From positions 11,922 to 35,087 of the forward strand of contig DYPE01000004.1 in assembly GCA_020720085.1 (NCBI GenBank): 23,166 bases of DNA, written 5' to 3'. This document shows, in pieces, positions 1 to 11,471 of this stretch. The DNA is from Dichelobacter nodosus. Lineage in GTDB: Bacteria; Pseudomonadota; Gammaproteobacteria; Beggiatoales; Beggiatoaceae. The notes beneath the pieces were generated by a model. The model was not told where the DNA came from. It did not search any database and saw only the letters and a program-made list of their open reading frames with translations. Both the position numbers and the translations under genes were made by a program. How positions within the stretch are numbered: position 1 is the stretch's first letter; every line of letters begins with the position of its first letter.

Positions 1-36
1 ACGCCCGTGTTCCGGGCCACGCCCGTGTTCCGGGCG
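1..36 (+). repeat. Two copies of the 18-bp unit acgcccgtgttccgggc(c/g), the same family as 22595-22659
   Basis: Read directly from the sequence. Confidence 0.85.
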
Positions 37-164
37 CAGAAGCGCCCAATCTCCTGACCAAGGGTTCCAAGGCGGTGATTCTGGCATATAATGCCGAAGA
101 CAATACTTACTGGGTCACCGCGCTGGAAGATATTTTGCGCGATGACAGGCCGGATACACTTTAA
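3..164 (+). CDS. 3'-terminal fragment of a protein whose tail carries ARVPG(H/A) hexapeptide repeats; the 5' end lies outside the window
   Basis: Frame 3 is open from the window edge to TAA at 162-164. It translates as ARVPGHARVPGAEAPNLLTKGSKAVILAYNAEDNTYWVTALEDILRDDRPDTL, a natural-looking C-terminus. The 18-bp DNA unit acgcccgtgttccgggc occurs twice and encodes the repeats. Not in the ORF track because it has no start in the window. Confidence 0.4.
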   Translation, partial: ARVPGHARVPGAEAPNLLTKGSKAVILAYNAEDNTYWVTALEDILRDDRPDTL

Positions 165-176
165 GGAGATAAGATT

Positions 177-2402
177 ATGACTTTTTCCACCAGTCTGGTC
201 ATTTGGTCCATTCTGATTTTTTCCGTCATTACATTTGGCGTGCTGACGTTCATCGTCAGTTTTTTTCAAAAAGTTGAGCAAGGCAAAGCGCTCATCGTCA
301 ACACCATGAAATCTGAGCCAGTGGTGACATTCACCGGGAGAGTGGTGCTGCCGGTGATTCACAAAGCGGAAATCATGGATATTTCGCTGAAAACCATAGA
401 AATCGACCGACGCGGCAAGGATGGTTTGATTTGCCGCGACAATATCCGGGCGGACATTAAAGTCACATTTTTCGTGCGCGTCAACAAAACCGCTGAAGAT
501 GTGCTCAAAGTGGCGCAAGCCATTGGTTGTGCGCGCGCTTCTGACCCGGCTACGCTGGAGGAATTGTTTAACGCCAAATTTTCCGAAGCGCTGAAAAGCG
601 TGGGAAAACAATTGGATTTTGAGGATTTATATAAAGAACGCGATTCATTCCGCGACCAAATCATTGAGCTGATTGGCACGCATCTCAACGGCTATGTGCT
701 AGAAGACGCAGCCATTGATTTTCTTGAACAAACGCCATTATCCTCCCTAGACCCGTCCAATATTCTGGATGCGCAAGGCATACGCAAAATCACGGAATTG
801 ACCTCGCAACAGCATGTGTACACCAATGAATTTGAAAACCAAGAGCGGATGAAAATCACCCAGCAGAATGTTACTGCCCAGGAAGCTATTCTGGAAATGG
901 AGCGCCGCCAGGCTGATGCCATAGCCAAACAACAACGCGAAATCCAGACCGTGAAAGACCGCGAGGCTGCCGAGATTGCCCTGGTGGCAGCGCAAGAAAA
1001 ACGCCGCAGCGAAGAGGCGCGGTTAGAATCTGAAGAGCAAATTGGCATCCGCGATATTAATAAGCAACGCGAAATGGAAGTAGCAGAACAAAACCGCCGC
1101 CGCGTAGTGGGTATAGAAGAAGAACGGGTGAATTTGGCGCGTGAGCAGGAAGTGATTGCCCGCGAACGCGAAATCGCGCTGTTACGTATTGCCAAAGAAA
1201 AAGCAGTGGAACAGGAGAAACGCGATATTGCCAGTGTCATCCGCGAACGCATCGCGGTGGAAAAAACCGTGGCCGAAGAAGAAGAACGCATCAAGGAATT
1301 GCGCATGGTCGAGGAAGCCAAGCGCGAAAAACAAGTGACCATTTTAATGGCTGAGGCAGCGGCGCAAGAAGAATTGGTCAAAGACATCAAAAAAGCCGAG
1401 GCGCAAGAACAAGTGGCCCGCCACAAGGCGCAAGAGCAACTGACCCTGGCTGAAGCGGAACAACAGATTGCCGACAAAAAAGCCTTTGCCAAGATTCGCC
1501 TGGCCGAAGGAACACAAGCGGAAAATGCTGCTGCTGGGCTGGCGCAAGTGCGCGTCAAAGAAGCCAATGCCCTGGCCATAGAAAAAGAAGGCGCGGCGCA
1601 AGCCAAAGCGTTGCTGGAAAAAATGCAAGCCGAGGCAGGCGGTTTGGAACAAAAAGGCTTGGCTGAGGCGCGCGTGCGCGAAGCAGGCGCGCAAGCCACC
1701 GCCAAAGAGGGCACAGCGCAGGCCAACGCATTGTTGGAAAAAATGCAGGCCGAAGCCAGCGGCGAAGAGCAGAAGGGCATGGCCTTGATGCGCGTGCGTG
1801 AACAAGAAAGTGAAGTGATTGAGCGCAAAGGCGTGGCCGAGGCAACGGCATTGCGCGAAAAATGGCTGGCTGAGGCAGCGGGACTGACGGAGAAATTTAA
1901 GGCAATGGCAGCACTGACCGGCGATGTCAAGGCGCACGAGGAATTCCGCCTGCGCATGGAACAGCAACAGATATTGGCGCAAGCCGCGATTGACGGTCAA
2001 AAAGTGATGGCAGGCCATCAGGCGCAGGTGCTAGCAGAAGCGCTGAAACACGCCAAAATCGATATTGTGGGCGGCGATGAGGTCTTCTTTAACCGCTTGC
2101 TCAACGCCACTTCGCTGGCCAAATCTATGGACAGTTTCGTAAACCACAGCGCGACCACGCAAACCGTGTTGCACGATTATCTCAGCCAGAATGCCAGCAT
2201 CGTGGAAGACATTAAACAAATTCTGGCCAATCCTGCTATGAACGCGCAAAATGTGCAACACTTAACTTTATCAGCCTTTTTGGCGCAATTAATGCGCCAT
2301 GCCCAGCCCGAGCAGCAAGATCGGCTGGCGCCGCTGTTGGACTGGGTGGAAAAGCAGAAATTAGGCGGCATTGCCGCATCCACGCAGCCCCCCTCTGCTT
2401 GA
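177..2402 (+). CDS. Flotillin/SPFH (band-7) family membrane protein, YqiK-like, with a long Ala/Glu/Lys-rich coiled-coil
   Basis: Strong RBS (taaggagat) 6 nt upstream of the ATG. N-terminal transmembrane helix (LVIWSILIFSVITFGVLTFIV), followed by an SPFH-like region and an extended EA-rich coiled-coil typical of flotillin C-termini. A 741-aa ORF with coherent codon usage. Confidence 0.85.
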   Translation: MTFSTSLVIWSILIFSVITFGVLTFIVSFFQKVEQGKALIVNTMKSEPVVTFTGRVVLPVIHKAEIMDISLKTIEIDRRGKDGLICRDNIRADIKVTFFVRVNKTAEDVLKVAQAIGCARASDPATLEELFNAKFSEALKSVGKQLDFEDLYKERDSFRDQIIELIGTHLNGYVLEDAAIDFLEQTPLSSLDPSNILDAQGIRKITELTSQQHVYTNEFENQERMKITQQNVTAQEAILEMERRQADAIAKQQREIQTVKDREAAEIALVAAQEKRRSEEARLESEEQIGIRDINKQREMEVAEQNRRRVVGIEEERVNLAREQEVIAREREIALLRIAKEKAVEQEKRDIASVIRERIAVEKTVAEEEERIKELRMVEEAKREKQVTILMAEAAAQEELVKDIKKAEAQEQVARHKAQEQLTLAEAEQQIADKKAFAKIRLAEGTQAENAAAGLAQVRVKEANALAIEKEGAAQAKALLEKMQAEAGGLEQKGLAEARVREAGAQATAKEGTAQANALLEKMQAEASGEEQKGMALMRVREQESEVIERKGVAEATALREKWLAEAAGLTEKFKAMAALTGDVKAHEEFRLRMEQQQILAQAAIDGQKVMAGHQAQVLAEALKHAKIDIVGGDEVFFNRLLNATSLAKSMDSFVNHSATTQTVLHDYLSQNASIVEDIKQILANPAMNAQNVQHLTLSAFLAQLMRHAQPEQQDRLAPLLDWVEKQKLGGIAASTQPPSA

Positions 2403-2458
2403 AAAAAACAAATAAAAAAACAAGCAGGACTTGTGTTACCGTGTATGGCAATCCATAC

Positions 2459-2654
2459 TCAATCCTCTCAACTTAACGTAATATATTGATTTTTATTTAA
2501 TTATTTTTTGTGTGAACCCATCGCGGAGGCATGCCGTCAGGATACACCAAGGTTCTATACCGGTGTGTCGCCACTTCATAGCACCCTTAACGCAAGGAGA
2601 TTGAAATAAATATCCTTATAAATCAATTGATTGTTGCTAAGTTGAGAGGATTGA
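2459..2654. mobile_element. MITE-like 196-bp element with 17-bp perfect terminal inverted repeats and an 8-bp flanking direct repeat (putative target-site duplication)
   Basis: The left inverted repeat tcaatcctctcaactta (2459-2475) is the exact reverse complement of taagttgagaggattga (2638-2654). Both are flanked on the outside by atccatac (2451-2458 and 2655-2662). The interior is AT-rich and non-coding. Confidence 0.45.
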
Positions 2655-3008
2655 ATCCATACTCACTCAAACCAACAATACGACAAAAAGAAAAAACGAT
2701 GAAGCGGCTGCTTTATTATTTAAAATTGCCGTCAGCGCAAGCATTTTCTTGCCAAGTCTATGATTTTTGCCACTATCTGACCATGGCCGCATGTTGCTCG
2801 CGGTGCTGGGGCGTTTTATTGTCTAGGCCCAGCCAGTGGCACGACGATTATAGCTGTCGGAAGCGCTACGGATTTTTTAGCGCAGGCAATGGCAGGAAAC
2901 TTGCACTAACCTTGCCAAGACGTCAAATCATGGCGGCGTAACGCAAGTGCCGCAACAGCCTGGCAACTTGCGCTGGAAATAAAAAAGATTTTTAAACGAG
3001 TATGGGAA

Positions 3009-4034
3009 ATGCACAAGCTATCGACTTACGCCTTGGAAAAGAGCGATAAATTATACGTTAAGACCATGCTGGAGCTGGCCGCCAAGCTCTATGGCACGAA
3101 TTGGATATTCGAGGAAACCTTGAGCGAGGACGTGCTCGTGGACATAGATCAGCCAGCAGGACAAACGTTCTGGCAACAACGCGCGAACGATCCGCGCGTG
3201 ATTCCCTATGGCACTAAAAATACCATGAATGTCCCTATTTTTCTGCACAAGCCGTTGCGTGTGCAAGCCATTGTAGAAGTATTGCAACGACTGCCAGGCT
3301 CAGCGCAAACACCGGCACCCACACCGGCAACGCCCGCACCGGTGGCCACGGCACATGCCGTACCCACAGCGGATATTCACCATCCTGCGCATCCGCACAG
3401 TCCCGTGTTCATTCCTGACAATTATGTGGTCGGTTTGTTGTTGGCGGCACGCCACTCGCCGCCAGGTCAGGCGCACCACCTCATTATTGCTGGCATGGAG
3501 CATTTGTACATTTCTCCGCAAAAAAATGCGTGCTATAGCGCGGTGGCGCGCTTCACTCAAATTACCTCTTCGCAAAAATTATTATTATGTAGTCCAATTA
3601 AACAACTCGAACAAAAAAATATTTCCGAGCAAGAAGCACAGACGGCCATGGAACAAAAACATTTGGCGCAACACCCGCTGGAAAGTTTTTTATGGTACTG
3701 TGCGTTATGGTCGTCGCAAGGCAGGCTAATGGTCGGATACTCACCATCTACGCCAGTAAAATTAAAGCAATTTCCCAATTTCACCATTTTGCCCCATGAG
3801 CCGTTACACATGAAACTTGCTGCCTTCATGCTAAAAAATACTGCAACTTTGCATACCGTTGCCCAAGAGACCCATATTGCTATTGAAAAAGTCACTGATT
3901 TTTTTAATGCCTGCGTGATGATTGGCGTGATTCAGGCCGAGCCGATGGGGGCGCAAGAGAACACTAAAATCCGGAAAACCCAGCCGGAACGGCAAAATTT
4001 ATTCAAAAGTATTCTAACCCGACTTATTAAATAA
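3009..4034 (+). CDS. Hypothetical two-domain protein with a central Pro/Thr/Ala/His-rich linker (TPAPTPATPAPVATAHAVPTADIHHPAHPHSP); first gene of the GTPase cassette
   Basis: A 341-aa ORF. Its stop lies 15 nt before the ATG of the GTPase gene. No family recognised by eye; the N-terminal ~100 aa could be a degenerate receiver-like fold (speculative). Confidence 0.55.
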   Translation: MHKLSTYALEKSDKLYVKTMLELAAKLYGTNWIFEETLSEDVLVDIDQPAGQTFWQQRANDPRVIPYGTKNTMNVPIFLHKPLRVQAIVEVLQRLPGSAQTPAPTPATPAPVATAHAVPTADIHHPAHPHSPVFIPDNYVVGLLLAARHSPPGQAHHLIIAGMEHLYISPQKNACYSAVARFTQITSSQKLLLCSPIKQLEQKNISEQEAQTAMEQKHLAQHPLESFLWYCALWSSQGRLMVGYSPSTPVKLKQFPNFTILPHEPLHMKLAAFMLKNTATLHTVAQETHIAIEKVTDFFNACVMIGVIQAEPMGAQENTKIRKTQPERQNLFKSILTRLIK

Positions 4035-4049
4035 TACGTGGCAACCGAT

Positions 4050-4577
4050 ATGAAAGACATTAAACTCGTCTTTACCGGCAGCATGGGCGCTGGCAAGACC
4101 ACAGCAATTGCCACCATTAGCGAAATTCCCGTTATTAACACTGACGTGCGTGCCAGCGATGATGCTGCCTTGCGCAAAGAAAAAACCACTGTGGCGCTAG
4201 ATTATGGCGAAATTACTTTAGGCGATGGCCAAAAATTGCGGCTGTACGGCACGCCAGGGCAAGAACGCTTCAGTTTCATGTGGAAAATTCTCATGGAAGG
4301 CGCGCTGGGCGTGATTATCTTGGTGGATAATGCCGGTGAAAATCCCATGGCTGATTTGGAGTTATACATTCGCCATTTTCGTGGCCTGGTGGATGACAAT
4401 ATGATTGTCGTGGGTGTCACGCGCATGGACATTGCGCCCACGCCTAGCTTACAAGCCTACCACGATTATCTCACCGCCCACGATTTGTATATTCCGGTAT
4501 TTTCCTCGGATACGCGCGAGCCGGAACATGTGTCCATGCTGATTCAATCCCTGGTTGCCATGTTGGAATATGGTTAG
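4050..4577 (+). CDS. Small Ras-like GTPase of the MglA / conservon CvnD ('ATP/GTP-binding protein') type
   Basis: P-loop GSMGAGKTT (GxxxxGKT). Switch-II-like YGTPGQERF. The overall pattern KLVFTG..GAGKTT...ISEI, then TTVALDYG.I.L, then LYGTPGQERFSFMW matches the CvnD/MglA-like family. The ORF track begins at GTG 4038; the ATG at 4050 (MKDIKLVFTG) is the likelier start. Confidence 0.8.
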   Translation: MKDIKLVFTGSMGAGKTTAIATISEIPVINTDVRASDDAALRKEKTTVALDYGEITLGDGQKLRLYGTPGQERFSFMWKILMEGALGVIILVDNAGENPMADLELYIRHFRGLVDDNMIVVGVTRMDIAPTPSLQAYHDYLTAHDLYIPVFSSDTREPEHVSMLIQSLVAMLEYG

Positions 4578-4710
4578 GCAATTGCTGGAAAAGAAAGCCG
4601 CCGCTTGCGGGTATTTTACTTGACAGAAATTGCCTTAAGTAGCACCACTCGCTTTACAGCACCGCCCTTACAAACTCATTTTCATTTTCGTTCGGGAGCC
4701 ACGCCACGTT

Positions 4711-5085
4711 ATGTTGTCTAAAATTGAAGAAGCCCGTCTTACCAGTTATCTAAAAAATTTGTTAAATACCTGCCCAGCCATTGATGCGGCGATTGTTGCC
4801 ACTTTGGATGGCCACTTATGCGCCAGCGTACAAAAAGACAATTACACCATGGAGCGGCTAGCCACCATGGGCAGTAGCTTAATGTCCTTGGGCGACACGA
4901 TTACGGCGGAATTAAAAATGGGATCGTGCCAGAATATCATCTCTGAAAATGAGGGGGGCATTATCGCCTTCATGCACATCAATGAGTCCCTGGTATTGGT
5001 ATCGCTTACCACTTCCAAAAGCAGCCTAGGGCTACTGCTCAGCCATTCAAAAAAGTGCGCGGCGAAAATCGCCGACGCCATGTAA
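4711..5085 (+). CDS. Roadblock/LC7 (MglB / CvnB-like) domain protein
   Basis: A 124-aa protein with the characteristic Roadblock pattern (L..LL......AAIVATLDG..CASV.......LATMGSSLMSLGDTI........II.E.EGG.IAFMHI.ESLVLVSLT). A GGGAG Shine-Dalgarno is upstream. Sits immediately after the GTPase, the canonical GTPase/GAP pairing. Confidence 0.75.
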   Translation: MLSKIEEARLTSYLKNLLNTCPAIDAAIVATLDGHLCASVQKDNYTMERLATMGSSLMSLGDTITAELKMGSCQNIISENEGGIIAFMHINESLVLVSLTTSKSSLGLLLSHSKKCAAKIADAM

Positions 5086-5100
5086 GGCTGGAATCATTGC

Positions 5101-6675
5101 ATGGAATTGCATATTGCGGGCAGTGTGAATGGTAACAACGCAGGGTATGGTATTGAAGCAATCCAGCGAATATTAGATGCCCCCCGCCAAGATATGGCCC
5201 ACGGCTCATCTTGGACAGGGCGGCCTTCTACGCGGCTTCACCGCGACAGCGGGCACATGCTGAAAATCAAGGAAGAACTGCAAATGAATCTGGTTTCCTC
5301 GCAACGCTATGTTGAACAAGCGTTGGCGCGGGAACGCACCCTGCAAGTGCATCCACCTGAAAAAACTTGGTTTTACGCAATTTCTCCCGCAATGCCGGAT
5401 CAGCCGCTGATTGGCAACATCTGCCCACTGCTTACTCCGCTTAACCTGTATTTTGACCGCCATGGTGCAGCAAATCCAAGCGCTTGCCTGAATTATATCA
5501 TTCAGCTATGGGAACTGTATTTTCACACCATAACCACCCATAACGCCCGCCTGGACGAAGGCTTGTCCAACTTTGGCTTAGATGCGCATGACCGCTTATA
5601 CTATTTAGATGACGATCTCTACGCCTGGGATCGGTTCGTCACTTGCGGCCAAATGCTGGGCGTACAACTGCGCTCGCAGCCATGGATAGGTAAAACGCAA
5701 GGGATTGAATTGGGCAAAGCCTTGCGCCAGGCGATCCTGCGTTATTTTGACGACGCCCAATATCTCATCGTGCTCACCGAGCAATTGCGCGGCGTATTTC
5801 TCACGGATGCCCGCCGCCAAGTGTTGGAGGCGCTCATTAGCGGGCTGTATCAGCCCATCGGTCTAATCACCACCGCCACCGCCACGGCTCCCCCCGTTGC
5901 TGTGCCGCAACCCGCACCGCCACCACCACTCCCGAGCCGCTATCTGGCTTTGCTGGCCGACGTACACGCCAATCTGCCCGCACTGGAGGCTGTGCTAAAC
6001 TTTTTGCAGCAAAAAAACATTAGCCATGGTTTTGTACTGGGCGACGTGGTGGGCTATGGCCCGCACCCAGCAGCGTGCATTGAGCGCCTACAGCAAACCT
6101 GCTTAACCGTGCTTAAAGGCAATCATGACCAAGGCTTGGGCAGCAATAAAATCAACGATGGATATTCCATCACCGCCAAATGGGCGCTGGCTTGGAGCCA
6201 GCACCACACCAGTGCCGCACACCGCCAATGGCTATTGAACTTGCCCCCCGTGCTGTATGGCGAAGATTGGATTGCCCTGCACGGCGCGCCCATGGATCCG
6301 ACGTTTTTTAATGCCTACGTCTATGTCATGACCTATGAACAAAATTTGGATAATCTGGCACAGCGGGGCATCCGCCTGTGTTACCACGGCCACACCCACA
6401 TTCCTGGCATCTATGCCCGCACGCCAGATGGCAAGGATCTGCACGTATGGCAAGCGGAAATTGATCTAAATGAGTATAGCCACGCGCTCATCTGTCCCGG
6501 GTCTGTGGGCCAACCGCGCCACGGCTTTAGCGGCGCACATTTCGCGGTACTTGACCGCGAACAAAATAAGCTATTTTTTTATCAGATTCAATATGATATA
6601 CAGCAAATAATCAACGAAATGACCGCTGCCGGTTTTCCTGATGCACTCATCCACCGCTTGCGCACTGGCGCTTAG
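5101..6675 (+). CDS. Two-domain protein: unknown N-terminal domain (~270 aa), Pro-rich linker, and C-terminal calcineurin-like (PPP-type) metallophosphoesterase domain
   Basis: The C-terminal domain carries PPP phosphoesterase signature motifs: LLADVHAN (GDxHG-like), GDVVGYGP (GDxVDRG-like) and KGNHD (GNHE-like), plus downstream His residues. The linker is TATATAPPVAVPQPAPPPPLPS. An alternative start is ATG 5284 (MNLVSS) with the better RBS aaggaag. It lies in the same orientation immediately after the Roadblock gene. Confidence 0.7.
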   Translation: MELHIAGSVNGNNAGYGIEAIQRILDAPRQDMAHGSSWTGRPSTRLHRDSGHMLKIKEELQMNLVSSQRYVEQALARERTLQVHPPEKTWFYAISPAMPDQPLIGNICPLLTPLNLYFDRHGAANPSACLNYIIQLWELYFHTITTHNARLDEGLSNFGLDAHDRLYYLDDDLYAWDRFVTCGQMLGVQLRSQPWIGKTQGIELGKALRQAILRYFDDAQYLIVLTEQLRGVFLTDARRQVLEALISGLYQPIGLITTATATAPPVAVPQPAPPPPLPSRYLALLADVHANLPALEAVLNFLQQKNISHGFVLGDVVGYGPHPAACIERLQQTCLTVLKGNHDQGLGSNKINDGYSITAKWALAWSQHHTSAAHRQWLLNLPPVLYGEDWIALHGAPMDPTFFNAYVYVMTYEQNLDNLAQRGIRLCYHGHTHIPGIYARTPDGKDLHVWQAEIDLNEYSHALICPGSVGQPRHGFSGAHFAVLDREQNKLFFYQIQYDIQQIINEMTAAGFPDALIHRLRTGA

Positions 6676-6676
6676 G
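6625..6676 (+). repeat. 52-bp direct repeat, copy A, covering the last 16 codons and stop of the phosphoesterase gene
   Basis: gctgccggttttcctgatgcactcatccaccgcttgcgcactggcgcttagg recurs at 10139-10190 with one mismatch. Confidence 0.8.
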
Positions 6677-6939
6677 CCATGACTAACTGAATTCGCTTCA
6701 CAACTGAAGCGTGGGCAATGCCGCTGAAGGCTTTGTGCGCCTATCATCCCCCAGCCACTGGCAACCCTGCTGCTTTCCATCAAGACAGCAGCGCATTATG
6801 TCCGCTTCCGCTGTTCATCATGCAGGATTTGTATGAATTGGTGCGCGACTGCGACAAGGTGCTGACGCTCTGAATACGAGAAAAAAAATCATAAAAAAAA
6901 CATTTGGATGAAGATGGTGTGTCGTTGGATTATCCGGTC

Positions 6940-7335
6940 ATGGCCTGGTTCACCCTGATTACGGTCATAGGCAGCGTTGCCTGGTTTCTAATCGTATATT
7001 TTGCTGAAAACCTTACTCGGAAAACACGCATGAACCTGTCGGTCAAAGTCATTTCCCAACGACCGCCCGCTGGGCGTTGCACATTGTACGCGGCTTATGC
7101 GCAAGCGCTGGCAGAGGCGTTGGGCGCGTCAACCGAAATTGTTTTTAGCGCCCACCGCAACGCGCATGGCAACGGCTATCCCGCGCTGTGGCTCAATGGT
7201 CGGGCTTTGCAACCCGCAGATGGGGTGATTTTAACCCCAACCGACCTGCTGACCGCACTGAATATGGCGGAAAACACCGCACTGACCGAAGCGTTGGAGC
7301 AACCGTTGGCGCGGATGTTGGAGATGGTGCAATAA
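6940..7335 (+). CDS. Hypothetical small membrane-anchored protein
   Basis: The ORF track starts at TTG 6904. ATG 6940 gives MAWFTLITVIGSVAWFLIVYF, a transmembrane helix, followed by a soluble ~100-aa domain. No family recognised. Confidence 0.4.
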   Translation: MAWFTLITVIGSVAWFLIVYFAENLTRKTRMNLSVKVISQRPPAGRCTLYAAYAQALAEALGASTEIVFSAHRNAHGNGYPALWLNGRALQPADGVILTPTDLLTALNMAENTALTEALEQPLARMLEMVQ

Positions 7336-7396
7336 AGGCCTGTTGCCCATCCAGTGCCGCTTGTTATATCGCTACACTGTAACTACACTTTACTTC

Positions 7397-7690
7397 ATGA
7401 ACCACATCAAATTTGAGTGGAATCCAGCCAAGAATCTCGCCAACCAGAAAAAACACGGGGTTGCTTTTGAAGAAGCCAAAACTGTGTTTGCTGACGAATT
7501 TGGTCGCTTAATTCCAGACCCGGAGCATTCTGCGGGAGAAGAACGTTTTATTCTCTTGGGCAGGAGTGCGAATAGCAGACTGTTAATCGTCTGCCATTGC
7601 GAGCGCGGCATCGGTACAATCCGCATTATTTCTGCGCGCAAAGCAGACAAATTTGAACGTAAACAATATGAGAGCTATATCTATGCGTGA
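7397..7690 (+). CDS. brnT: BrnT-family (DUF497) type II toxin, ribonuclease
   Basis: MNHIKFEWNPAKNLANQKKHGVAFEEAKTVFADEF...ERFILLGRS...LLIVCHCER...IRIISARKA matches the BrnT hallmark (FEWD..KA..N..KHGV.F.EA..VF.D). The stop overlaps the antitoxin start. The ORF-track start 7343 is upstream; ATG 7397 is preferred. Confidence 0.8.
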   Translation: MNHIKFEWNPAKNLANQKKHGVAFEEAKTVFADEFGRLIPDPEHSAGEERFILLGRSANSRLLIVCHCERGIGTIRIISARKADKFERKQYESYIYA

Positions 7691-7892
7691 TTCTTATGAT
7701 TTTTCCAATTCGATTAAAAATCCATATGCCAACCACCTGAAAGAGCAGGTGACCATCCCTATGGACGAAGACACCATTGCCTATTTCAAACAATTGTCAG
7801 CAGACAAAGGTATTCCTTACCAAAGCGTTATCACCTTGTTTCTGCGGGATTGCGCACTAAAACGCCGCGAGTTAGACATTCATTGGTCATAA
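7683..7892 (+). CDS. brnA: BrnA-family antitoxin (RHH/CopG-like)
   Basis: MRDSYDFSNSIKNPYANHLKEQVTIPMDEDTIAYFKQLSADKGIPYQSVITLFLRDCA has the BrnA pattern (D.S......NPY.......I.I..D.D.I.YFK......G..YQ..IN..LR). Its ATG at 7683 overlaps the brnT stop (atgcgtga). Confidence 0.8.
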   Translation: MRDSYDFSNSIKNPYANHLKEQVTIPMDEDTIAYFKQLSADKGIPYQSVITLFLRDCALKRRELDIHWS

Positions 7893-7917
7893 ATGGATTG
7901 CGCCAAGGAGTCAAACG

Positions 7918-8410
7918 GTGAACCCTATTTACTTAGACTACAACGCCACCACGCCGATTGATCCGCGCGTAGTGGCAGCAATTCCCGCTGGGGTCGGTCG
8001 TGATGCCACTGACTATGCCATTCAGGTTAAATACGCCATAAAATGGTCAATTTACAACCCTGATTTTACAAGGGCTGACAAGCCAGCGGGAATTGCTGGC
8101 GTAGTGGAAGCGATGCTGCCCTGGTTGTGCGAAGGATTTGGCAATCCATCCTCCGCGCACATTTATGGGCACGCCGCGCACCAAGCAGCGAGTAGCCCGC
8201 ATGAAGTAGCGCGCAATGCGAGATTCCCGGATTCCGCTACGCTTCATCCGGGCTACTTGCTGCACAGCATCCCGCGCACACGGCGCAGTGCGCCTGTCGG
8301 TCGGGCGCTTTACCACCTTTGCCGAGATTGCGCGCGCCGCAGAAGTTTTGAGCGCCGCCTGGTGTACCTTAACCGGACATCTTCCGTATGACCACACTTT
8401 GGCCGGATGA
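7918..8410 (+). pseudogene. Remnant of a class-V aminotransferase / cysteine desulfurase (IscS/NifS-like) gene, with an in-frame 132-bp insertion, an internal deletion and frame changes
   Basis: The N-terminus MNPIYLDYNATTPIDPRVV...EAMLPWLCEGFGNPSSAHIYG matches the IscS start (IYLDY.ATTP.DPRV ... GNP.S..H). A different frame at 8216-8410 gives VRLSVGRFTTFAEIARAAEVL, matching the IscS C-terminal IRFSLGRFTTEEEID. Only ~0.5 kb remains of an expected ~1.2 kb gene. Confidence 0.65.
7976..8098. mobile_element. MITE-like 123-bp element with 16-bp perfect terminal inverted repeats and a 9-bp target-site duplication, inserted in-frame in the cysteine-desulfurase remnant
   Basis: cagcaattcccgctgg (7976-7991) is the reverse complement of ccagcgggaattgctg (8083-8098). 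A direct repeat gcgtagtgg flanks both ends (7967-7975 and 8099-8107); it encodes the duplicated RVV/VVE of the IscS N-terminus. The 123 + 9 = 132 bp adds 44 codons with no stop. Confidence 0.5.
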
Positions 8411-8819
8411 ACATTACCGTGCGCAACTTGAACGTTTGCGCGGCGCGATTGGGCGAACGGTGTATTTGATTGAACTCCACCCCAGCGCGATGCAACTGGG
8501 CATTTCCCTCACGGGCACTGCGTATGTGTTGTTGGACGTACTGCCTTTTCCCCGTCCTGACCCGACGCGCGGGCTTGCGCCGCACATGCTGGTGCTGGAT
8601 GACGGGCGCGGAGTGAATTTAGGGCGCATTGTGCGGGTGAGTTATCAACCGTTTACCGCAGATGCAGTGGAGATTGTGTATCAAGACGCCCATGCCGCCG
8701 AAACGCTTGTATTTGCGCCACGCCGCTTGTGCCAAGAACGGATTGCCGAATGCTCGCGGCAGGCGTTGGCGATGATTTTGGGCAAGCCCTTGCCGCCATT
8801 GTTAGAGCCGCCGCAATGA
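8388..8819 (+). CDS. Hypothetical protein (143 aa), translationally coupled to the downstream methyltransferase
   Basis: ORF whose stop overlaps the methyltransferase start (ATGA at 8816-8819). No recognisable family. Partly overlaps the pseudogene remnant, so it is uncertain. Confidence 0.4.
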   Translation: MTTLWPDEHYRAQLERLRGAIGRTVYLIELHPSAMQLGISLTGTAYVLLDVLPFPRPDPTRGLAPHMLVLDDGRGVNLGRIVRVSYQPFTADAVEIVYQDAHAAETLVFAPRRLCQERIAECSRQALAMILGKPLPPLLEPPQ

Positions 8820-9457
8820 CACGCGAAGAGGTGGTTCGCTATCACGCCTGGTACGCCACGCCGCGCGGCGCGTGGATGGCGGCGTGCGAGCTTGCTTTGT
8901 TGCGGGACTTGCTGCATCCTGAGCCGGAAGAACGTCTCCTGGACGTGGGCTGCGGCACAGGCTTTTTCAGCAGCCAATTTGCTGATTGGGGCTTGCATGT
9001 GACCGGCCTTGACCCGGACAGCGCGAGGCTGGACTTCGCCCGCCAACACGACCAGCGGATTGATTGGCTGGTGGGTCAAGCAGAAACGCTGCCGTTTGCT
9101 GACGCGCAATTTGATTACGCCGCCGCCATCACCAGTTTGTGCTTTGTAGCGCGACCCGCGCAAGCCTTGCAAGAACTGTGGCGCGTCAGCCGCCGTGCAG
9201 TGATTCTGGGGTTGCTCCACCGCCACAGCCTGTTGTGGTGGCACAAACGCCACGCGCTGGGCTATCGGGGCGCACGCTGGGATACCCTGGCAGATGTCCG
9301 CACTTGGGCAAAAGCCTTGCAGCCCGCGCCACAATTGGCTTGGCGCTACGGAATTTTTGAGCCATCCGCCAGCGGTTTCGCGCAAATAGTGGAATCCCGC
9401 CTGTCGCCACGCTTACCGCTGGGCGGATTTTTGGCAGTGGCATGGCGGCGCACATAA
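8816..9457 (+). CDS. Class I SAM-dependent methyltransferase (Methyltransf_11-like)
   Basis: Motif I LLDVGCGTGFFSSQFADWGLHVTGLDPD and a post-I acidic residue. Motif II/III region DWLVGQAETLPFADAQFDYAAAITSLCF...RRAVILGL. The ORF track extends upstream to 8729; ATG 8816 (MTREEVV) is preferred because of the ATGA coupling. Confidence 0.75.
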   Translation: MTREEVVRYHAWYATPRGAWMAACELALLRDLLHPEPEERLLDVGCGTGFFSSQFADWGLHVTGLDPDSARLDFARQHDQRIDWLVGQAETLPFADAQFDYAAAITSLCFVARPAQALQELWRVSRRAVILGLLHRHSLLWWHKRHALGYRGARWDTLADVRTWAKALQPAPQLAWRYGIFEPSASGFAQIVESRLSPRLPLGGFLAVAWRRT

Positions 9458-9517
9458 CCTATTCACTTATTTTGATTCGCTTTCTTAACTTCAACTGTAA
9501 AAAAAGGAGTCTTTCCT

Positions 9518-10030
9518 ATGAAAACAACCATGCGTTTTTTCCAAGCCGGAATCGTGGGCATTGCGCTGGGCTGCGCACACATCAGCTATGCGGCGGACGC
9601 GCCGCGCCCGGATGACAGTTTCGCCTTGAAAGGCGTAGAAGTCGGCAAGGTCGCGTTTGACATCACGCCTGGCGACGCCAAAAAATTGGCGCTGTTCTTA
9701 AAAGTCATCGCGCAAACCCATGCGGATTTGCTTCGCCAAAACGTCAAACCCGACATGGTGTTGGTATTTCACGGCGCAGCAGTACAATTGATCACCAGCG
9801 AGTATCCGGCGGATTTGGCGTTGGACGATGAAGACGCACGCAAAGAAATTGCCTCAATTTTGGCGGATTTACATCATAAAGGGGTGCGAATTGAGGCGTG
9901 TTCAATTGCCACTGAGTTGTTTAAGGTCAATACCCAGGCTTTGTTGCCAGGCATTGTGTTGGTAGGTAATACCTTTGTGTCGCAAATTGGCTATCAGGCG
10001 AAAGGATATGCGATTATTCCGGTGAATTAG
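9518..10030 (+). CDS. Exported protein (Sec signal peptide), tentatively DsrE/DsrF-like fold
   Basis: Excellent RBS aaaaaggag. Signal peptide MKTTMRFFQAGIVGIALGCAHISYA-AD. The mature ~145-aa domain (MVLVFHGAAV...GVRIEACSIAT) is reminiscent of DsrE/DsrF-like sulfur-relay-fold proteins. The family assignment is a low-confidence guess. Confidence 0.55.
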   Translation: MKTTMRFFQAGIVGIALGCAHISYAADAPRPDDSFALKGVEVGKVAFDITPGDAKKLALFLKVIAQTHADLLRQNVKPDMVLVFHGAAVQLITSEYPADLALDDEDARKEIASILADLHHKGVRIEACSIATELFKVNTQALLPGIVLVGNTFVSQIGYQAKGYAIIPVN

Positions 10031-10138
10031 CGCGATTGGATGCGCTCGGCAGGCGGTGCCCTGAGCTTGCCGAAGGGCGGCAATCAATTGCGCTAAACGA
10101 TGCGCTTCGCCAAAAGACGCTCAGCGCATCCTACGCGG

Positions 10139-10190
10139 GCTGCCGGTTTTCCTGATGCACTCATCCACTGCTTGCGCACTGGCGCTTAGG
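10139..10190 (+). repeat. 52-bp direct repeat, copy B (51/52 identical to 6625-6676); right boundary of the putative islet
   Basis: gctgccggttttcctgatgcactcatccactgcttgcgcactggcgcttagg. In frame it would encode AAGFPDALIHCLRTGA*, a duplicate of the phosphoesterase C-terminus. Confidence 0.8.
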
Positions 10191-10270
10191 CGATTACCGG
10201 ACAAGAAAATCCCAGCTTGCAGGCATTTTCTTGGACAGAAATCGCCTTACCCTTGGAAACCTCCGAAAGC

Positions 10271-10837
10271 TTACTGCCCCAGCCGTAGCGCGCGCAGCAA
10301 CCATTGCGCGGGTGGAGCCGATTTCACCGCGATTTTGGCTTGGCCGCGTGTGCCAGAGACAAAGGGGCTGGGATTGGCGCCGGTGTATTCGGTTTGTACT
10401 ACCGCCAGATTCGTTTGCAGCAGCACCGAAGTGAATGTGTTTGTTTGGCCCGGCGCGTGTGCGCCTGGTGGATGCACGGCCACCACAATGGCGGGAATCG
10501 CGCCAAGCGCGCGCGTTGCGCTATCAGGCAGATACACCCATGCGGTTTGGCCCTCTGCGAGAACAGCACTGGCTTGGGGCGGAAAATCGGCCCGCATCAT
10601 GCGTTCTATGTATAATTTGGCGCGTTGGCTAGCGCCTTGGCCATTAAAACGCATGGACGTGGTTTCCTGGTTAAGGACTTCCAGTTGATTACTGGTTTGG
10701 TACAGTGTCAACGGCATGAAAAAAAACCAATAGCTCCATGCCAGTGCCAGCGCTATGGCCAATCCCAACGCAGCCAAAGGGATGCGCGTTAGGTGTGGAT
10801 CCAGTGCCCGTTGCGTGCGTGAAAACGGCGCGGTCAT
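10271..10837 (-). CDS. Hypothetical membrane-anchored protein (N-terminal transmembrane helix, periplasmic domain)
   Basis: Minus-strand ORF with the helix IPLAALGLAIALALAWSYWFFF and natural amino-acid composition. The opposing plus-strand ORF (10155-10688) is Cys/Arg/Trp-rich and looks like a frame artefact. The ORF track begins at GTG 10846; ATG 10837 is preferred. Confidence 0.45.
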   Translation of the reverse strand: MTAPFSRTQRALDPHLTRIPLAALGLAIALALAWSYWFFFMPLTLYQTSNQLEVLNQETTSMRFNGQGASQRAKLYIERMMRADFPPQASAVLAEGQTAWVYLPDSATRALGAIPAIVVAVHPPGAHAPGQTNTFTSVLLQTNLAVVQTEYTGANPSPFVSGTRGQAKIAVKSAPPAQWLLRALRLGQ

Positions 10838-11394: not shown

Positions 11395-11471
11395 GGCTAT
11401 GTAGCTCAGCTGGTTAGAGCGCGGCACTCATAATGCTGAGGTCGGTGGTTCGAGTCCACCCATAGCCACCA
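11395..11471 (+). tRNA. tRNA-Met (anticodon CAT), elongator type
   Basis: 77-nt cloverleaf: acceptor stem GGCTATG/CATAGCC, D-arm GCTC...GAGC, anticodon loop CTCATAA and T-arm GGTGG TTCGAGT CCACC, ending in an encoded CCA. G1-C72 paired and close similarity to enterobacterial metT argue for the elongator type rather than initiator. A lysidine tRNA-Ile2 cannot be fully excluded. Confidence 0.88.

What the first reader, a model, noticed from the sequence alone, without database searches (positions are those of the whole stretch)
6625..10190. Roughly 3.5-kb islet bracketed by 52-bp direct repeats that duplicate the 3' end of the phosphoesterase gene
Copy A (6625-6676) is the genuine end of the 524-aa gene. 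Copy B (10139-10190, 1 mismatch) would encode the same last 16 residues plus stop but is orphaned. This is the classic footprint of site-specific integration into a gene's 3' end with att duplication. Between the repeats lie typical cargo: a small membrane protein, a BrnT/BrnA toxin-antitoxin pair, a decayed iscS-like gene carrying a MITE, a methyltransferase pair, and an exported DsrE-like protein, partly at lower GC. No integrase is present, so the islet is probably a degraded remnant.
Basis: seen in the sequence. Interest (0 to 1): 0.6.

Follow-up and report, generated by a model that had tools for sequence, protein, structure and literature searches.

The report
Sulfur-operon fragment bracketed by gene-end repeats
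The last 53 bases of a phosphoesterase gene really are repeated 3.5 kb downstream, but the DNA in between is a broken, decaying piece of an ordinary sulfur-metabolism operon, not a recognisable mobile island, so this is most likely a one-off rearrangement scar of modest interest.

Summary
The repeat is real: 6625-6677 and 10139-10191 are 53 nt long with one mismatch. No shuffle of the window gave a second match. It occurs only at this locus in about 170 fetched loci. Four assemblies of one Frasassi-cave Beggiatoaceae clone carry both junctions.

The "typical cargo" reading fails. The 3.46 kb between the repeats matches, in order and orientation, the 3' part of a conserved chromosomal operon of related sulfur bacteria: DsrE106, p104, NifS, p145, SAM-methyltransferase, exported DsrE170. 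In the window its first gene is cut in mid-gene, and only the last 29 codons are recognisable. NifS has lost about 288 codons and holds a MITE and a palindrome. A low-GC brnTA cassette sits between p104 and nifS.

The islet's GC (54.1%) and codon usage match the flanks. There is no integrase in the window or in the extra 4.9 kb of L001 to its left. No empty site was found, because every close sequence is the same clone. None of 13 relatives has a duplicated phosphoesterase 3' end.

Best reading (about 0.5): an integrase-independent break-repair or template-switch scar at the base of a hairpin. Main rival (about 0.33): a decayed, integrase-less att-flanked element (CIME-like). Interest is low.

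The parts
5101..6675 (+). Phosphoesterase (PE) gene, 524 aa. It is the last gene of a conserved g741-g341-small GTPase-Roadblock-PE cluster.
   Evidence: Pfam Metallophos_2 and Metallophos hits. Upstream synteny is shared with L004. The C-terminus is conserved in alignment A1.
6625..6677 (+). Repeat copy A. It holds the last 16 codons of PE, the TAG stop and 2 further nt. Weaker identity continues to 6683.
6678..6776 (+). Unassigned 99-nt spacer with a small 7-bp hairpin at 6694-6711.
   Evidence: It has no significant similarity to the 5' part of DsrE106 or to the right-hand spacer in either orientation. Fold.
6777..6873 (+). Truncated remnant of the operon's first DsrE gene (DsrE106): the last 29 codons and the stop. 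It lies inside the 51-aa ORF 6718-6873.
   Evidence: tblastn gives 65-71% identity to L088 and L093 DsrE106 residues 78-106. blastn gives 75%.
7030..7335 (+). p104 homologue, 101 aa. It is annotated as a 131-aa 'membrane protein' starting at 6940, but the N-terminal extension is absent from homologues.
   Evidence: tblastn gives 56% identity over the full length of L088 p106 and L093 p104. No Pfam family is matched.
7336..7917 (+). brnTA cassette (brnT 7397-7690, brnA 7683-7892), inserted between p104 and nifS. These two genes abut in relatives. GC is 44.7%.
   Evidence: Pfam BrnT_toxin scores 92.6 bits. BrnA_antitoxin scores 24.7 bits, just under its cut-off. PHROG toxin hit. There is a 75% nt match to an annotated BrnT/BrnA pair on a Photobacterium plasmid. 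In L088 p106 and nifS overlap. GC.
7918..8391 (+). NifS/IscS-like cysteine desulfurase remnant. Codons 1-46 lie at 7918-7982 and 8099-8187, and codons ~335-374 lie at 8252-8371 in another frame. About 288 codons are missing.
   Evidence: NCBIfam NifS/IscS partial hits. tblastn to the 378-aa NifS of L088.
7976..8098 (.). 123-bp MITE with 16-bp perfect terminal inverted repeats and a 9-bp target duplication (GCGTAGTGG at 7967-7975 and 8099-8107).
   Evidence: Logan contig L002 ends inside it.
8185..8263 (.). 79-nt REP-like palindrome at the site of the nifS internal deletion.
   Evidence: DNA fold gives -27.9 kcal/mol, z = -6.6. Logan contig L085 starts inside it.
8388..8819 (+). p143, a conserved protein of unknown function. 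It is intact.
   Evidence: 68-80% identity to homologues that sit next to NifS and methyltransferase genes. No Pfam, NCBIfam or PHROG hit.
8816..9457 (+). SAM-dependent methyltransferase, 213 aa. It is intact and its start overlaps the p143 stop.
   Evidence: Pfam Methyltransf_11 and Methyltransf_25. 72-78% identity to the L088, L093 and L094 neighbours.
9518..10030 (+). DsrE-like protein, 170 aa, with an N-terminal signal-like segment. It is intact.
   Evidence: Pfam DsrE. 71% identity to L088 DsrE170 at the same operon position.
10031..10138 (.). 108-nt REP-like spacer. It includes the motif GCGGTGCCCTGAGCTTGCCGAAGGG (10053-10077), which is also seen in relatives.
   Evidence: Logan contig L087 ends inside it at 10124.
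10139..10191 (+). Repeat copy B, the orphan copy. It has one mismatch at 10169 (T), which changes Arg to Cys.
10188..10247 (.). Hairpin with 29-nt arms between copy B and the convergent 188-aa gene (10271-10837, minus strand). Its first 4 nt (AGGC) are the last 4 nt of the repeat.
   Evidence: DNA fold z = -4.0, with 0 of 200 shuffles folding as well.

Best explanation
The repeat is a scar of integrase-independent (illegitimate) rearrangement, not a pair of recombinase att sites.

A promoterless, 5'-truncated block of the lineage's own type of sulfur-trafficking operon lies between the stop codon of the phosphoesterase gene and a hairpin in front of the convergent 188-aa gene. The block runs DsrE106', p104, NifS, p143, methyltransferase, DsrE170.

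The 53-nt duplicate arose in the same repair or replication event, by one of two routes:
(a) Target duplication. The fragment was captured at a staggered break, or at a template switch, at the base of the hairpin.
(b) Templated patch. A short stretch was copied from 3.5 kb upstream into a deletion junction, joined through the 4-nt AGGC overlap.

The block has since decayed or been invaded: brnTA inserted, a MITE inserted, and most of NifS was deleted at a palindrome. The four intact genes now lie downstream of, and on the same strand as, the GTPase/Roadblock/phosphoesterase cluster.

Shown: the repeat, the identity and truncation of the block, host-like composition, and the absence of recombinase genes. 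Inferred: the mechanism and the order of events.
For: 1. Everything recognisable between the repeats matches one conserved operon in order and orientation. The references are L088 (DsrE106, p106, NifS, p145, MTase, DsrE170) and L093. The only exceptions are brnTA, a MITE and a palindrome.

2. The block starts inside a gene. Only the last 29 codons of DsrE106 are present. The operon's regulator, LactB, MFS and the DsrE106 5' half are absent from the window. A ragged end fits illegitimate joining better than a defined element terminus.

3. In relatives the operon lies among housekeeping genes, with no flanking repeat of 28 nt or more and no integrase called.

4. The islet's GC is 54.1% against 54.1% for the window. 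The codon-usage fit of the islet genes (-1.02 to -1.12) lies inside the range of the flanking genes (-0.97 to -1.19). Only brnTA is low in GC.

5. No integrase, excisionase or mobilisation gene occurs among the window's ORFs or in the extra 4.9 kb of L001.

6. The break lies 4 nt into a stable 29-nt-arm hairpin. From general knowledge, palindromes are hot spots for breakage and template switching.

7. There is an independent precedent in the same operon of a relative. L093 has an 88-nt, 92% direct repeat (the DsrE106 end plus the p104 start) bracketing p104 and a truncated NifS, with no recombinase gene called on the 4.9-kb contig.

8. The phosphoesterase 3' end is rearranged here in other ways too. 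The 135-aa partner gene follows the phosphoesterase gene convergently in L003, L004 and L008, overlapping its stop in the two annotated loci (L003, L004). It is absent from the window.

9. None of 13 relatives' phosphoesterase loci has a second copy of its own 3' end within about 10 kb.
Against: - No well-established bacterial mechanism routinely gives a 53-bp target duplication around a 3.4-kb insertion.
- The donor site, or the operon's 5' half, was not found.
- There is no second copy of p143 in any assembly of this clone, so a simple copy-and-paste from a resident operon is not supported.
- Microhomology is limited to AGGC at one junction and none at the other.
- The architecture is exactly what integrase-mediated insertion into a gene's 3' end produces: a direct repeat that covers the last codons and the stop, so that the gene is restored.
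- About 100 nt of unassigned sequence lies just inside each repeat and could be att arms.
- The operon's MFS gene is 81-86% identical between Thiomargarita-like and Thiobacillus MAGs, with the same level in one MAG labelled Rhizobium. Part of the operon therefore does move horizontally.
Confidence: 0.5

Rival explanations
1. Decayed integrative element, like a cis-mobilizable element (CIME). An island carrying the sulfur operon integrated by site-specific recombination, or by Campbell-type recombination through a 53-bp homology, into the 3' end of the phosphoesterase gene. The two repeats would then be attL and attR. A later internal deletion removed the integrase and the operon's 5' half, leaving an att-flanked remnant without an integrase.
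For: - The architecture is canonical: the direct repeat includes the gene's last 16 codons and the stop, and the gene is restored.
- 53 bp is within the usual range of att identity blocks (general knowledge).
- CIMEs are defined as elements that lost their integration and transfer genes but kept attL and attR (PMC5704250).
- Unassigned spacers of 99 and 108 nt lie just inside the repeats.
- A toxin-antitoxin module is present.
- The operon's MFS gene shows a strong signal of horizontal transfer.
Against: - There is no recombinase in the window or in the extra 4.9 kb of L001.
- The cargo is a 5'-truncated operon fragment with host-like composition, so an extra deletion has to be assumed.
- In relatives the same operon has no att-like flanks or integrase nearby.
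- No relative has a duplicated phosphoesterase 3' end. No strong integrase hit appeared among the 25 families listed for ORFs downstream of the gene in 10 of those loci. That list showed only 25 of 66 families.
- The phosphoesterase C-terminus evolves fast: its closest homologue is only 58% identical over the whole protein. A 52/53-identical attP could therefore only have come from the same species.
- No empty-site or variant contig exists among four assemblies.
Confidence: 0.33
2. Tandem duplication followed by deletions. The sulfur operon once lay upstream of the phosphoesterase cluster. A tandem duplication from mid-DsrE106 to just past the phosphoesterase stop created the phosphoesterase|DsrE106' junction. 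A later deletion removed the second copy of the cluster except for its last 53 nt.
For: - It explains both junctions using common event types.
- L093 shows a duplication-plus-deletion pattern within the same operon.
Against: - It predicts a first, complete operon copy upstream. The 1.3 kb upstream of g741 holds other genes (L095 and L096).
- No second p143, methyltransferase or DsrE170 sequence exists in any assembly of the clone.
- Contigs of 18.9 kb and 80 kb run through the block without breaking. At least a third deleting event would therefore be needed.
Confidence: 0.07
3. Assembly artefact, or a chimeric join at a short repeat.
For: The source is a metagenome-assembled genome. Contigs of the clone do break at other repeats: the MITE, the palindrome, the tRNA gene and window 2460-2600.
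Against: - Both junctions are crossed by independent assemblies: the JGI 18.9-kb contig, the NCBI 80-kb contig, and Logan contigs L002 and L085. They show 0-3 SNPs over 14 kb.
- The two copies differ at one fixed position in all of them.
Confidence: 0.01

Closest known systems
CIME / decayed genomic island flanked by attL and attR at the 3' end of a gene
   Same: A direct repeat duplicates the target gene's 3' end. The gene is kept intact. There is no integrase. A toxin-antitoxin module and decayed genes lie inside.
   Different: The content is a truncated fragment of one chromosomal operon with host-like composition. There is no related intact element, no cognate integrase, no empty site, and no recurrence at this target in relatives.
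Templated-insertion, template-switch or illegitimate-recombination scars (short duplicated patches at rearrangement junctions), as seen in L093 of this same operon family
   Same: A short duplicate (53 nt here, 88 nt in L093) of a nearby gene end or gene start brackets a block with a truncated gene. No recombinase is present. The break lies at a palindrome. There is a 4-nt overlap at one junction.
   Different: The spacing is larger (3.5 kb against 0.7 kb). No donor or reciprocal junction has been identified. The mechanism is inferred, not shown.
Conserved DsrE-p104-NifS-p145-methyltransferase-DsrE170 operon of Beggiatoaceae relatives (L088, L093), preceded by an ArsR-rhodanese regulator, LactB and MFS
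   Same: Gene order and orientation match. Identities are 56-78% at the amino-acid level and 72-78% at the nucleotide level for p104, p143, the methyltransferase and DsrE170.
   Different: Here the regulator, LactB, MFS and most of DsrE106 are missing. NifS is gutted. brnTA, a MITE and a palindrome are inserted. The block is fused behind an unrelated gene cluster.

Membership tests
Integrase-type genomic island / integrative element | [quoted passage not shown] | tested here: met
   53 nt with 1 mismatch at 6625-6677 and 10139-10191.
Integrase-type genomic island / integrative element | A tyrosine or serine recombinase gene inside or next to the element | tested here: not met
   No such family appears in Pfam, NCBIfam or PHROG scans of the ORFs of the islet and window. 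None appears in the called genes of L001 or L098.
Integrase-type genomic island / integrative element | An empty site (target gene followed directly by the right flank) in a related genome or population variant | tested here: inconclusive
   All close sequences are one clone and all carry the islet. The nearest other phosphoesterase is 58% identical and has different downstream genes.
Integrase-type genomic island / integrative element | Content that is foreign in composition or typical of mobile elements | tested here: not met
   GC is 54.1% for both islet and window, and codon usage lies within the range of the flanks. The content is a fragment of a conserved chromosomal operon. Only brnTA is atypical.
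CIME (cis-mobilizable element) | attL and attR retained, integration and transfer genes lost, and derivation from (or mobilisation by) a related intact element at the same site | tested here: inconclusive
   Repeats are present and recombinase genes are absent. However, no related intact element or cognate integrase was found. No duplication of the phosphoesterase 3' end was found in 13 relatives. The 53-mer is absent from 166 other loci and a 24-nt core of it from the viral contigs. Definition from PMC5704250.
Transposon / IS / MITE-type insertion of the whole islet | Terminal inverted repeats and a short (2-15 bp) target duplication | tested here: not met
   The two inner ends show no significant direct or inverted similarity. 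The duplication is 53 bp.
BrnT/BrnA type II toxin-antitoxin | A BrnT_toxin domain followed by an overlapping small BrnA/CopG-like antitoxin gene | tested here: met
   BrnT scores 92.6 bits against a cut-off of 34.5. BrnA scores 24.7 bits, just below its cut-off of 26.1. The genes overlap at 7683-7690. There is a 75% nt match to an annotated pair on a plasmid.
DsrE-p104-NifS-p145-MTase-DsrE170 operon | The same genes in the same order and orientation as in L088 and L093 | tested here: met
   tblastn and blastn matches are collinear from 6777 to 10029. DsrE106 and NifS are present only as remnants.
Template-switch / illegitimate-recombination scar | Ragged, non-element ends, microhomology at the junctions, and a nearby template for the duplicated patch | tested here: inconclusive
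   The left end is ragged, inside DsrE106. There is a 4-nt AGGC overlap with the hairpin at one junction and none at the other. The template lies 3.5 kb away. The donor locus is unknown.

The most novel reading that the evidence does not exclude
The 53-mer is a functional att site of a so far undescribed integrative element family. That family would target the 3' end of the GTPase/Roadblock-associated phosphoesterase gene in cave Beggiatoaceae. The islet would then be a CIME that can still be excised and moved in trans, carrying a sulfur-trafficking module (p104, p143, methyltransferase, exported DsrE) together with a brnTA addiction cassette.
Probability: 0.15. Interest if true: 0.45.

Novelty: new member of a known kind. 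Interest (0 to 1): 0.2.

Why it matters
The finding is mainly a caution. A direct repeat that duplicates a gene's 3' end looks like an att footprint. Here the bracketed DNA is a truncated piece of the lineage's own type of sulfur operon, with host-like composition and no recombinase. Repeat-based island callers would probably mislabel it.

There is also a local functional consequence. Four intact sulfur-related genes have lost their regulator and 5' genes. They now lie downstream of, and on the same strand as, an MglA-like GTPase/Roadblock/phosphoesterase cluster, so their expression may have been rewired.

Neither point is surprising to a specialist in the highly rearranged genomes of large sulfur bacteria.

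Tried and rejected
- Empty-site search by protein. The nearest phosphoesterase homologues are only 58% identical. Their loci (L003, L004) and 11 other full-length homologue loci contain no p188, OsmC or gcv genes next to the phosphoesterase gene. This was uninformative.
- The first genome-contig scan, with the single protein, found nothing.
- Exact-protein look-ups of the phosphoesterase, p188, DsrE170 and g741 proteins, and of the JGI variant P0361, all returned the same clone with the islet.
- A 24-nt repeat core found no match in metagenome contigs or viral contigs. The islet found nothing in plasmids or phages except brnTA.
- I tried to find the operon's 5' half in the source genome through the MFS protein. 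This failed because thousands of proteins pass the threshold, and the 120 listed are mostly 81-86% identical to the query.
- Rfam found nothing in the islet at E <= 1. The only RNA gene in the window is a tRNA-Met, 1.2 kb to the right.
- I considered that the 70-aa minus-strand ORF 6571-6783 might be a remnant of the conserved 135-aa partner gene. There is no similarity.
- I considered that 6678-6776 might be decayed DsrE106, or a terminal repeat paired with 10031-10138. Alignment scores were at the level of shuffled sequence.
- I screened 37 loci of p143 homologues for bracketing repeats. Only the source clone and two distant loci (L145 and L149, which lack tRNAs) have any. These two were not pursued.

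Full report
**Observation**

The repeat exists as described. The repeat finder gives 6625-6683 versus 10139-10197 as 59 nt at 95% identity. The first 53 nt (6625-6677 / 10139-10191) differ only at 6655 C / 10169 T. In 100 dinucleotide-preserving shuffles of the window, none produced a second match with up to 3 mismatches.

Copy A holds the last 16 codons and the TAG stop of the 524-aa calcineurin-like phosphoesterase (PE) ORF 5101-6675. An alignment of 29 homologues shows that this C-terminus (M..aGFP..LI..L..G) is a conserved part of the family. Copy B is orphaned, and its single difference would change Arg to Cys.

The 53-mer is not a dispersed element in anything I could reach. It occurs only in the loci of the same clone among 171 fetched loci. 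A 24-nt core of it has no match in the metagenome or viral collections. The metagenome negative is weak, because that collection also did not return the JGI contig that carries the repeat.

**Source and reality of the junctions**

The window is one clone of a Beggiatoaceae-like bacterium from the Frasassi Grotta Sulfurea biofilm. It matches four data sets with 0-3 SNPs over 14 kb:
- the NCBI MAG GCA_974327925.1 (80-kb contig, L001);
- the JGI 3300000234 TB_GS09_5 contig (18.9 kb, L098);
- Logan contigs of SRR1560848 (L002, L085, L097);
- a Logan contig of SRR404114 (L087).

The sample and read accessions are listed in PMC4288042. Independent assemblies cross both junctions, and the one-base difference between the copies is fixed in all of them. 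An assembly artefact is therefore excluded. Because everything close is the same clone, no empty site could be found.

**What lies between the repeats**

A homologue search with the 143-aa protein (8388-8819) found relatives at 68-80% identity. Their contigs show a conserved operon.

In L088, a Thiomargarita MAG, the order is:
- ArsR-rhodanese regulator (minus strand);
- LactB;
- MFS;
- DsrE (106 aa);
- p106;
- NifS-like desulfurase (378 aa);
- p145;
- SAM-methyltransferase;
- DsrE (170 aa);
- Cys/Met-PLP enzyme.

The operon there is followed by housekeeping genes. L093 has the same order.

tblastn and blastn place the window's islet collinearly on this operon:

| Window coordinates | Corresponds to | Identity |
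|---|---|---|
| 6777-6873 | last 29 codons of DsrE106 | 65-71% aa |
| 7030-7323 | whole of p104/p106 | 56% aa |
| 7918-7982 and 8099-8187 | NifS codons 1-46 | 39% aa across both segments incl. MITE gap; 81% and 71-76% nt for the two segments |
| 8252-8371 | NifS codons 335-374, in another frame | 50% aa |
| 8385-9443 | p143 and methyltransferase | 73-78% nt |
| 9503-10029 | DsrE170 | 72% nt, 71% aa |

So the islet is the 3' part of one operon, cut in its first retained gene.

The remaining sequence consists of later additions and unassigned stretches:
- a brnTA cassette (7336-7917, GC 44.7%) lies between p104 and nifS, which overlap in L088;
- a 123-bp MITE has 16-bp terminal inverted repeats and a 9-bp target duplication;
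- a 79-nt palindrome sits where about 288 NifS codons are missing;
- two spacers, 6678-6776 and 10031-10138, resemble neither each other nor DsrE106.

The "methyltransferase pair" is one methyltransferase plus p143, which matches no family.

**Composition and mobility genes**

The islet's GC is 54.1%, the same as the window. The synonymous-codon fit of the islet genes to the flanking pool (-1.02 to -1.12) lies inside the range of the flanking genes (-0.97 to -1.19). Only brnTA is low in GC.

No integrase, excisionase, relaxase or transposase family is hit by the window ORFs scanned. None is among the called genes of L001 or L098. The islet has no match in plasmid or phage collections apart from brnTA.

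In relatives the operon has no flanking repeat of 28 nt or more and no integrase nearby. None of the 13 phosphoesterase loci of relatives has a second copy of its own 3' end. No strong integrase hit appeared among the families listed for ORFs downstream of the gene in 10 of those loci. That list was truncated to 25 of 66 families.

**Local features that bear on mechanism**

- Immediately after copy B lies a stable hairpin with 29-nt arms (10188-10247; DNA fold z = -4.0). Its first four bases, AGGC, are the last four of the repeat. The discontinuity in copy A therefore lies 4 nt into that stem.
- In the nearest relatives (L003, L004, L008) a conserved 135-aa gene follows the phosphoesterase gene convergently. 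In the two annotated loci (L003, L004) it overlaps the phosphoesterase stop. It is absent from the window. The 3' end of the phosphoesterase gene has thus been rearranged more than once in this lineage.
- L093 carries an 88-nt, 92% direct repeat inside the same operon. It consists of the DsrE106 end plus the p104 start, and it brackets p104 and a truncated NifS. This is an integrase-free precedent for short orphan duplicates at rearrangement junctions in these genomes.

**Explanations**

(I) Integrase-independent scar, about 0.5. The operon fragment was either captured at a break or template switch at the hairpin base, with a 53-nt target duplication. Alternatively, copy B is a templated patch copied from 3.5 kb upstream into a deletion junction.
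- For: a ragged end inside a gene, host-like composition, no recombinase, a palindrome at the break, the L093 precedent, and the missing 135-aa gene.
- Against: there is no standard bacterial mechanism for a 53-bp target duplication, no donor was found, and microhomology is minimal.

(II) Decayed att-flanked element (CIME-like, as defined in PMC5704250), about 0.33.
- For: the repeat architecture is canonical. There are about 100 nt of unassigned sequence inside each repeat. The operon's MFS gene is 81-86% identical between Thiomargarita-like and Thiobacillus MAGs, and in one MAG labelled Rhizobium, which is a signal of horizontal transfer.
- Against: it needs an additional deletion that removed the integrase and half of the operon. 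It also needs an attP copy that is 52/53 identical to a fast-evolving gene end, so the element could only have moved within the species.

(III) Tandem duplication plus deletions, about 0.07. This predicts a second operon copy. None is seen, and long contigs run through the block unbroken.

(IV) Assembly artefact, about 0.01.

**Verdict**

The "classic site-specific integration with typical cargo" reading is not supported by the content, composition, boundaries or comparative data, although it is not excluded.

The feature is a new instance of a known kind of genome scar and is of low general interest. The accompanying observation of a widespread, unannotated p143 family, tied to NifS, methyltransferase, DsrE and ArsR-rhodanese genes in sulfur oxidisers, may deserve its own look.

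Noticed in passing
window 8388-8819; loci L088-L171: The 143-aa protein has no Pfam, NCBIfam or PHROG family. It is nevertheless conserved (44-80% identity) in more than 70 metagenome loci and in Chromatiaceae genomes. In many of these loci, especially those on longer contigs, it lies close to a NifS-like desulfurase, a SAM-methyltransferase and/or an ArsR-rhodanese regulator. It appears to be an uncharacterised sulfur-trafficking module.
   Followed up: partly
window 7976-8098 (target duplication at 7967-7975 and 8099-8107): A 123-bp MITE with 16-bp perfect terminal inverted repeats (CAGCAATTCCCGCTGG) and a 9-bp target duplication (GCGTAGTGG) splits the NifS remnant. A Logan contig ends inside it, which suggests it is multi-copy in the genome.
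   Followed up: partly
window 8185-8263: A 79-nt near-perfect palindrome (DNA fold z = -6.6) sits exactly where about 288 NifS codons are missing. Another Logan contig starts inside it.
   Followed up: partly
window 10053-10077; L003 17775-17799; L089 14923-14947: A 25-nt motif, GCGGTGCCCTGAGCYTGCCGAAGGG, recurs at 96% identity in unrelated loci of relatives. It may be part of a small dispersed REP-like element. It lies in the spacer just before repeat copy B.
   Followed up: partly
L093 2875-2962 and 3598-3685: An 88-nt direct repeat (92% identity) duplicates the DsrE106 end plus the p104 start and brackets p104 and a truncated NifS. NifS has therefore decayed independently in a relative, leaving a similar scar.
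   Followed up: partly
L003 8967-9374, L004 6578-6985, L008 11553-11957 (absent from the window): A 135-aa protein with no family hit is a conserved partner of the phosphoesterase cluster. It is 57-94% identical across eight loci, and it is convergent with the phosphoesterase gene in the nearest relatives (overlapping its stop in L003 and L004). It is missing from this window.
   Followed up: partly
window 2460-2600; L001 7360; L095: The NCBI MAG joins window 2460 onward to CcsA/PurC genes. It carries g741 on a separate 3.7-kb contig that overlaps window 1-2600. There is either a dispersed repeat of about 140 nt or a misjoin here.
   Followed up: no
L093 1224-2531 / L088 6870-8180: The MFS transporter of the operon's 5' half is 81-86% identical to proteins from Thiobacillus MAGs and from one MAG labelled Rhizobium. 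This is a strong signal of horizontal transfer for that part of the operon.
   Followed up: no
window 11395-11471: A tRNA-Met (CAT) gene lies 1.2 kb to the right of copy B, between OsmC and gcvT. Logan contig L085 ends inside it.
   Followed up: no
window 177-6675; L004 491-6589: A conserved cluster is shared with L004 and partly with L008. It consists of a 741-aa protein, a 341-aa protein, a small Ras/MglA-like GTPase, a Roadblock/LC7 protein and the 524-aa phosphoesterase. About 280 N-terminal residues of the phosphoesterase have no family. The system's function is unknown.
   Followed up: no
window 6874-7029: A 156-nt A/T-rich stretch separates the DsrE106 remnant from the p104 start codon. 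In L088 these genes are 2 nt apart. This stretch supplies the hydrophobic N-terminal extension of the annotated 131-aa ORF.
   Followed up: no
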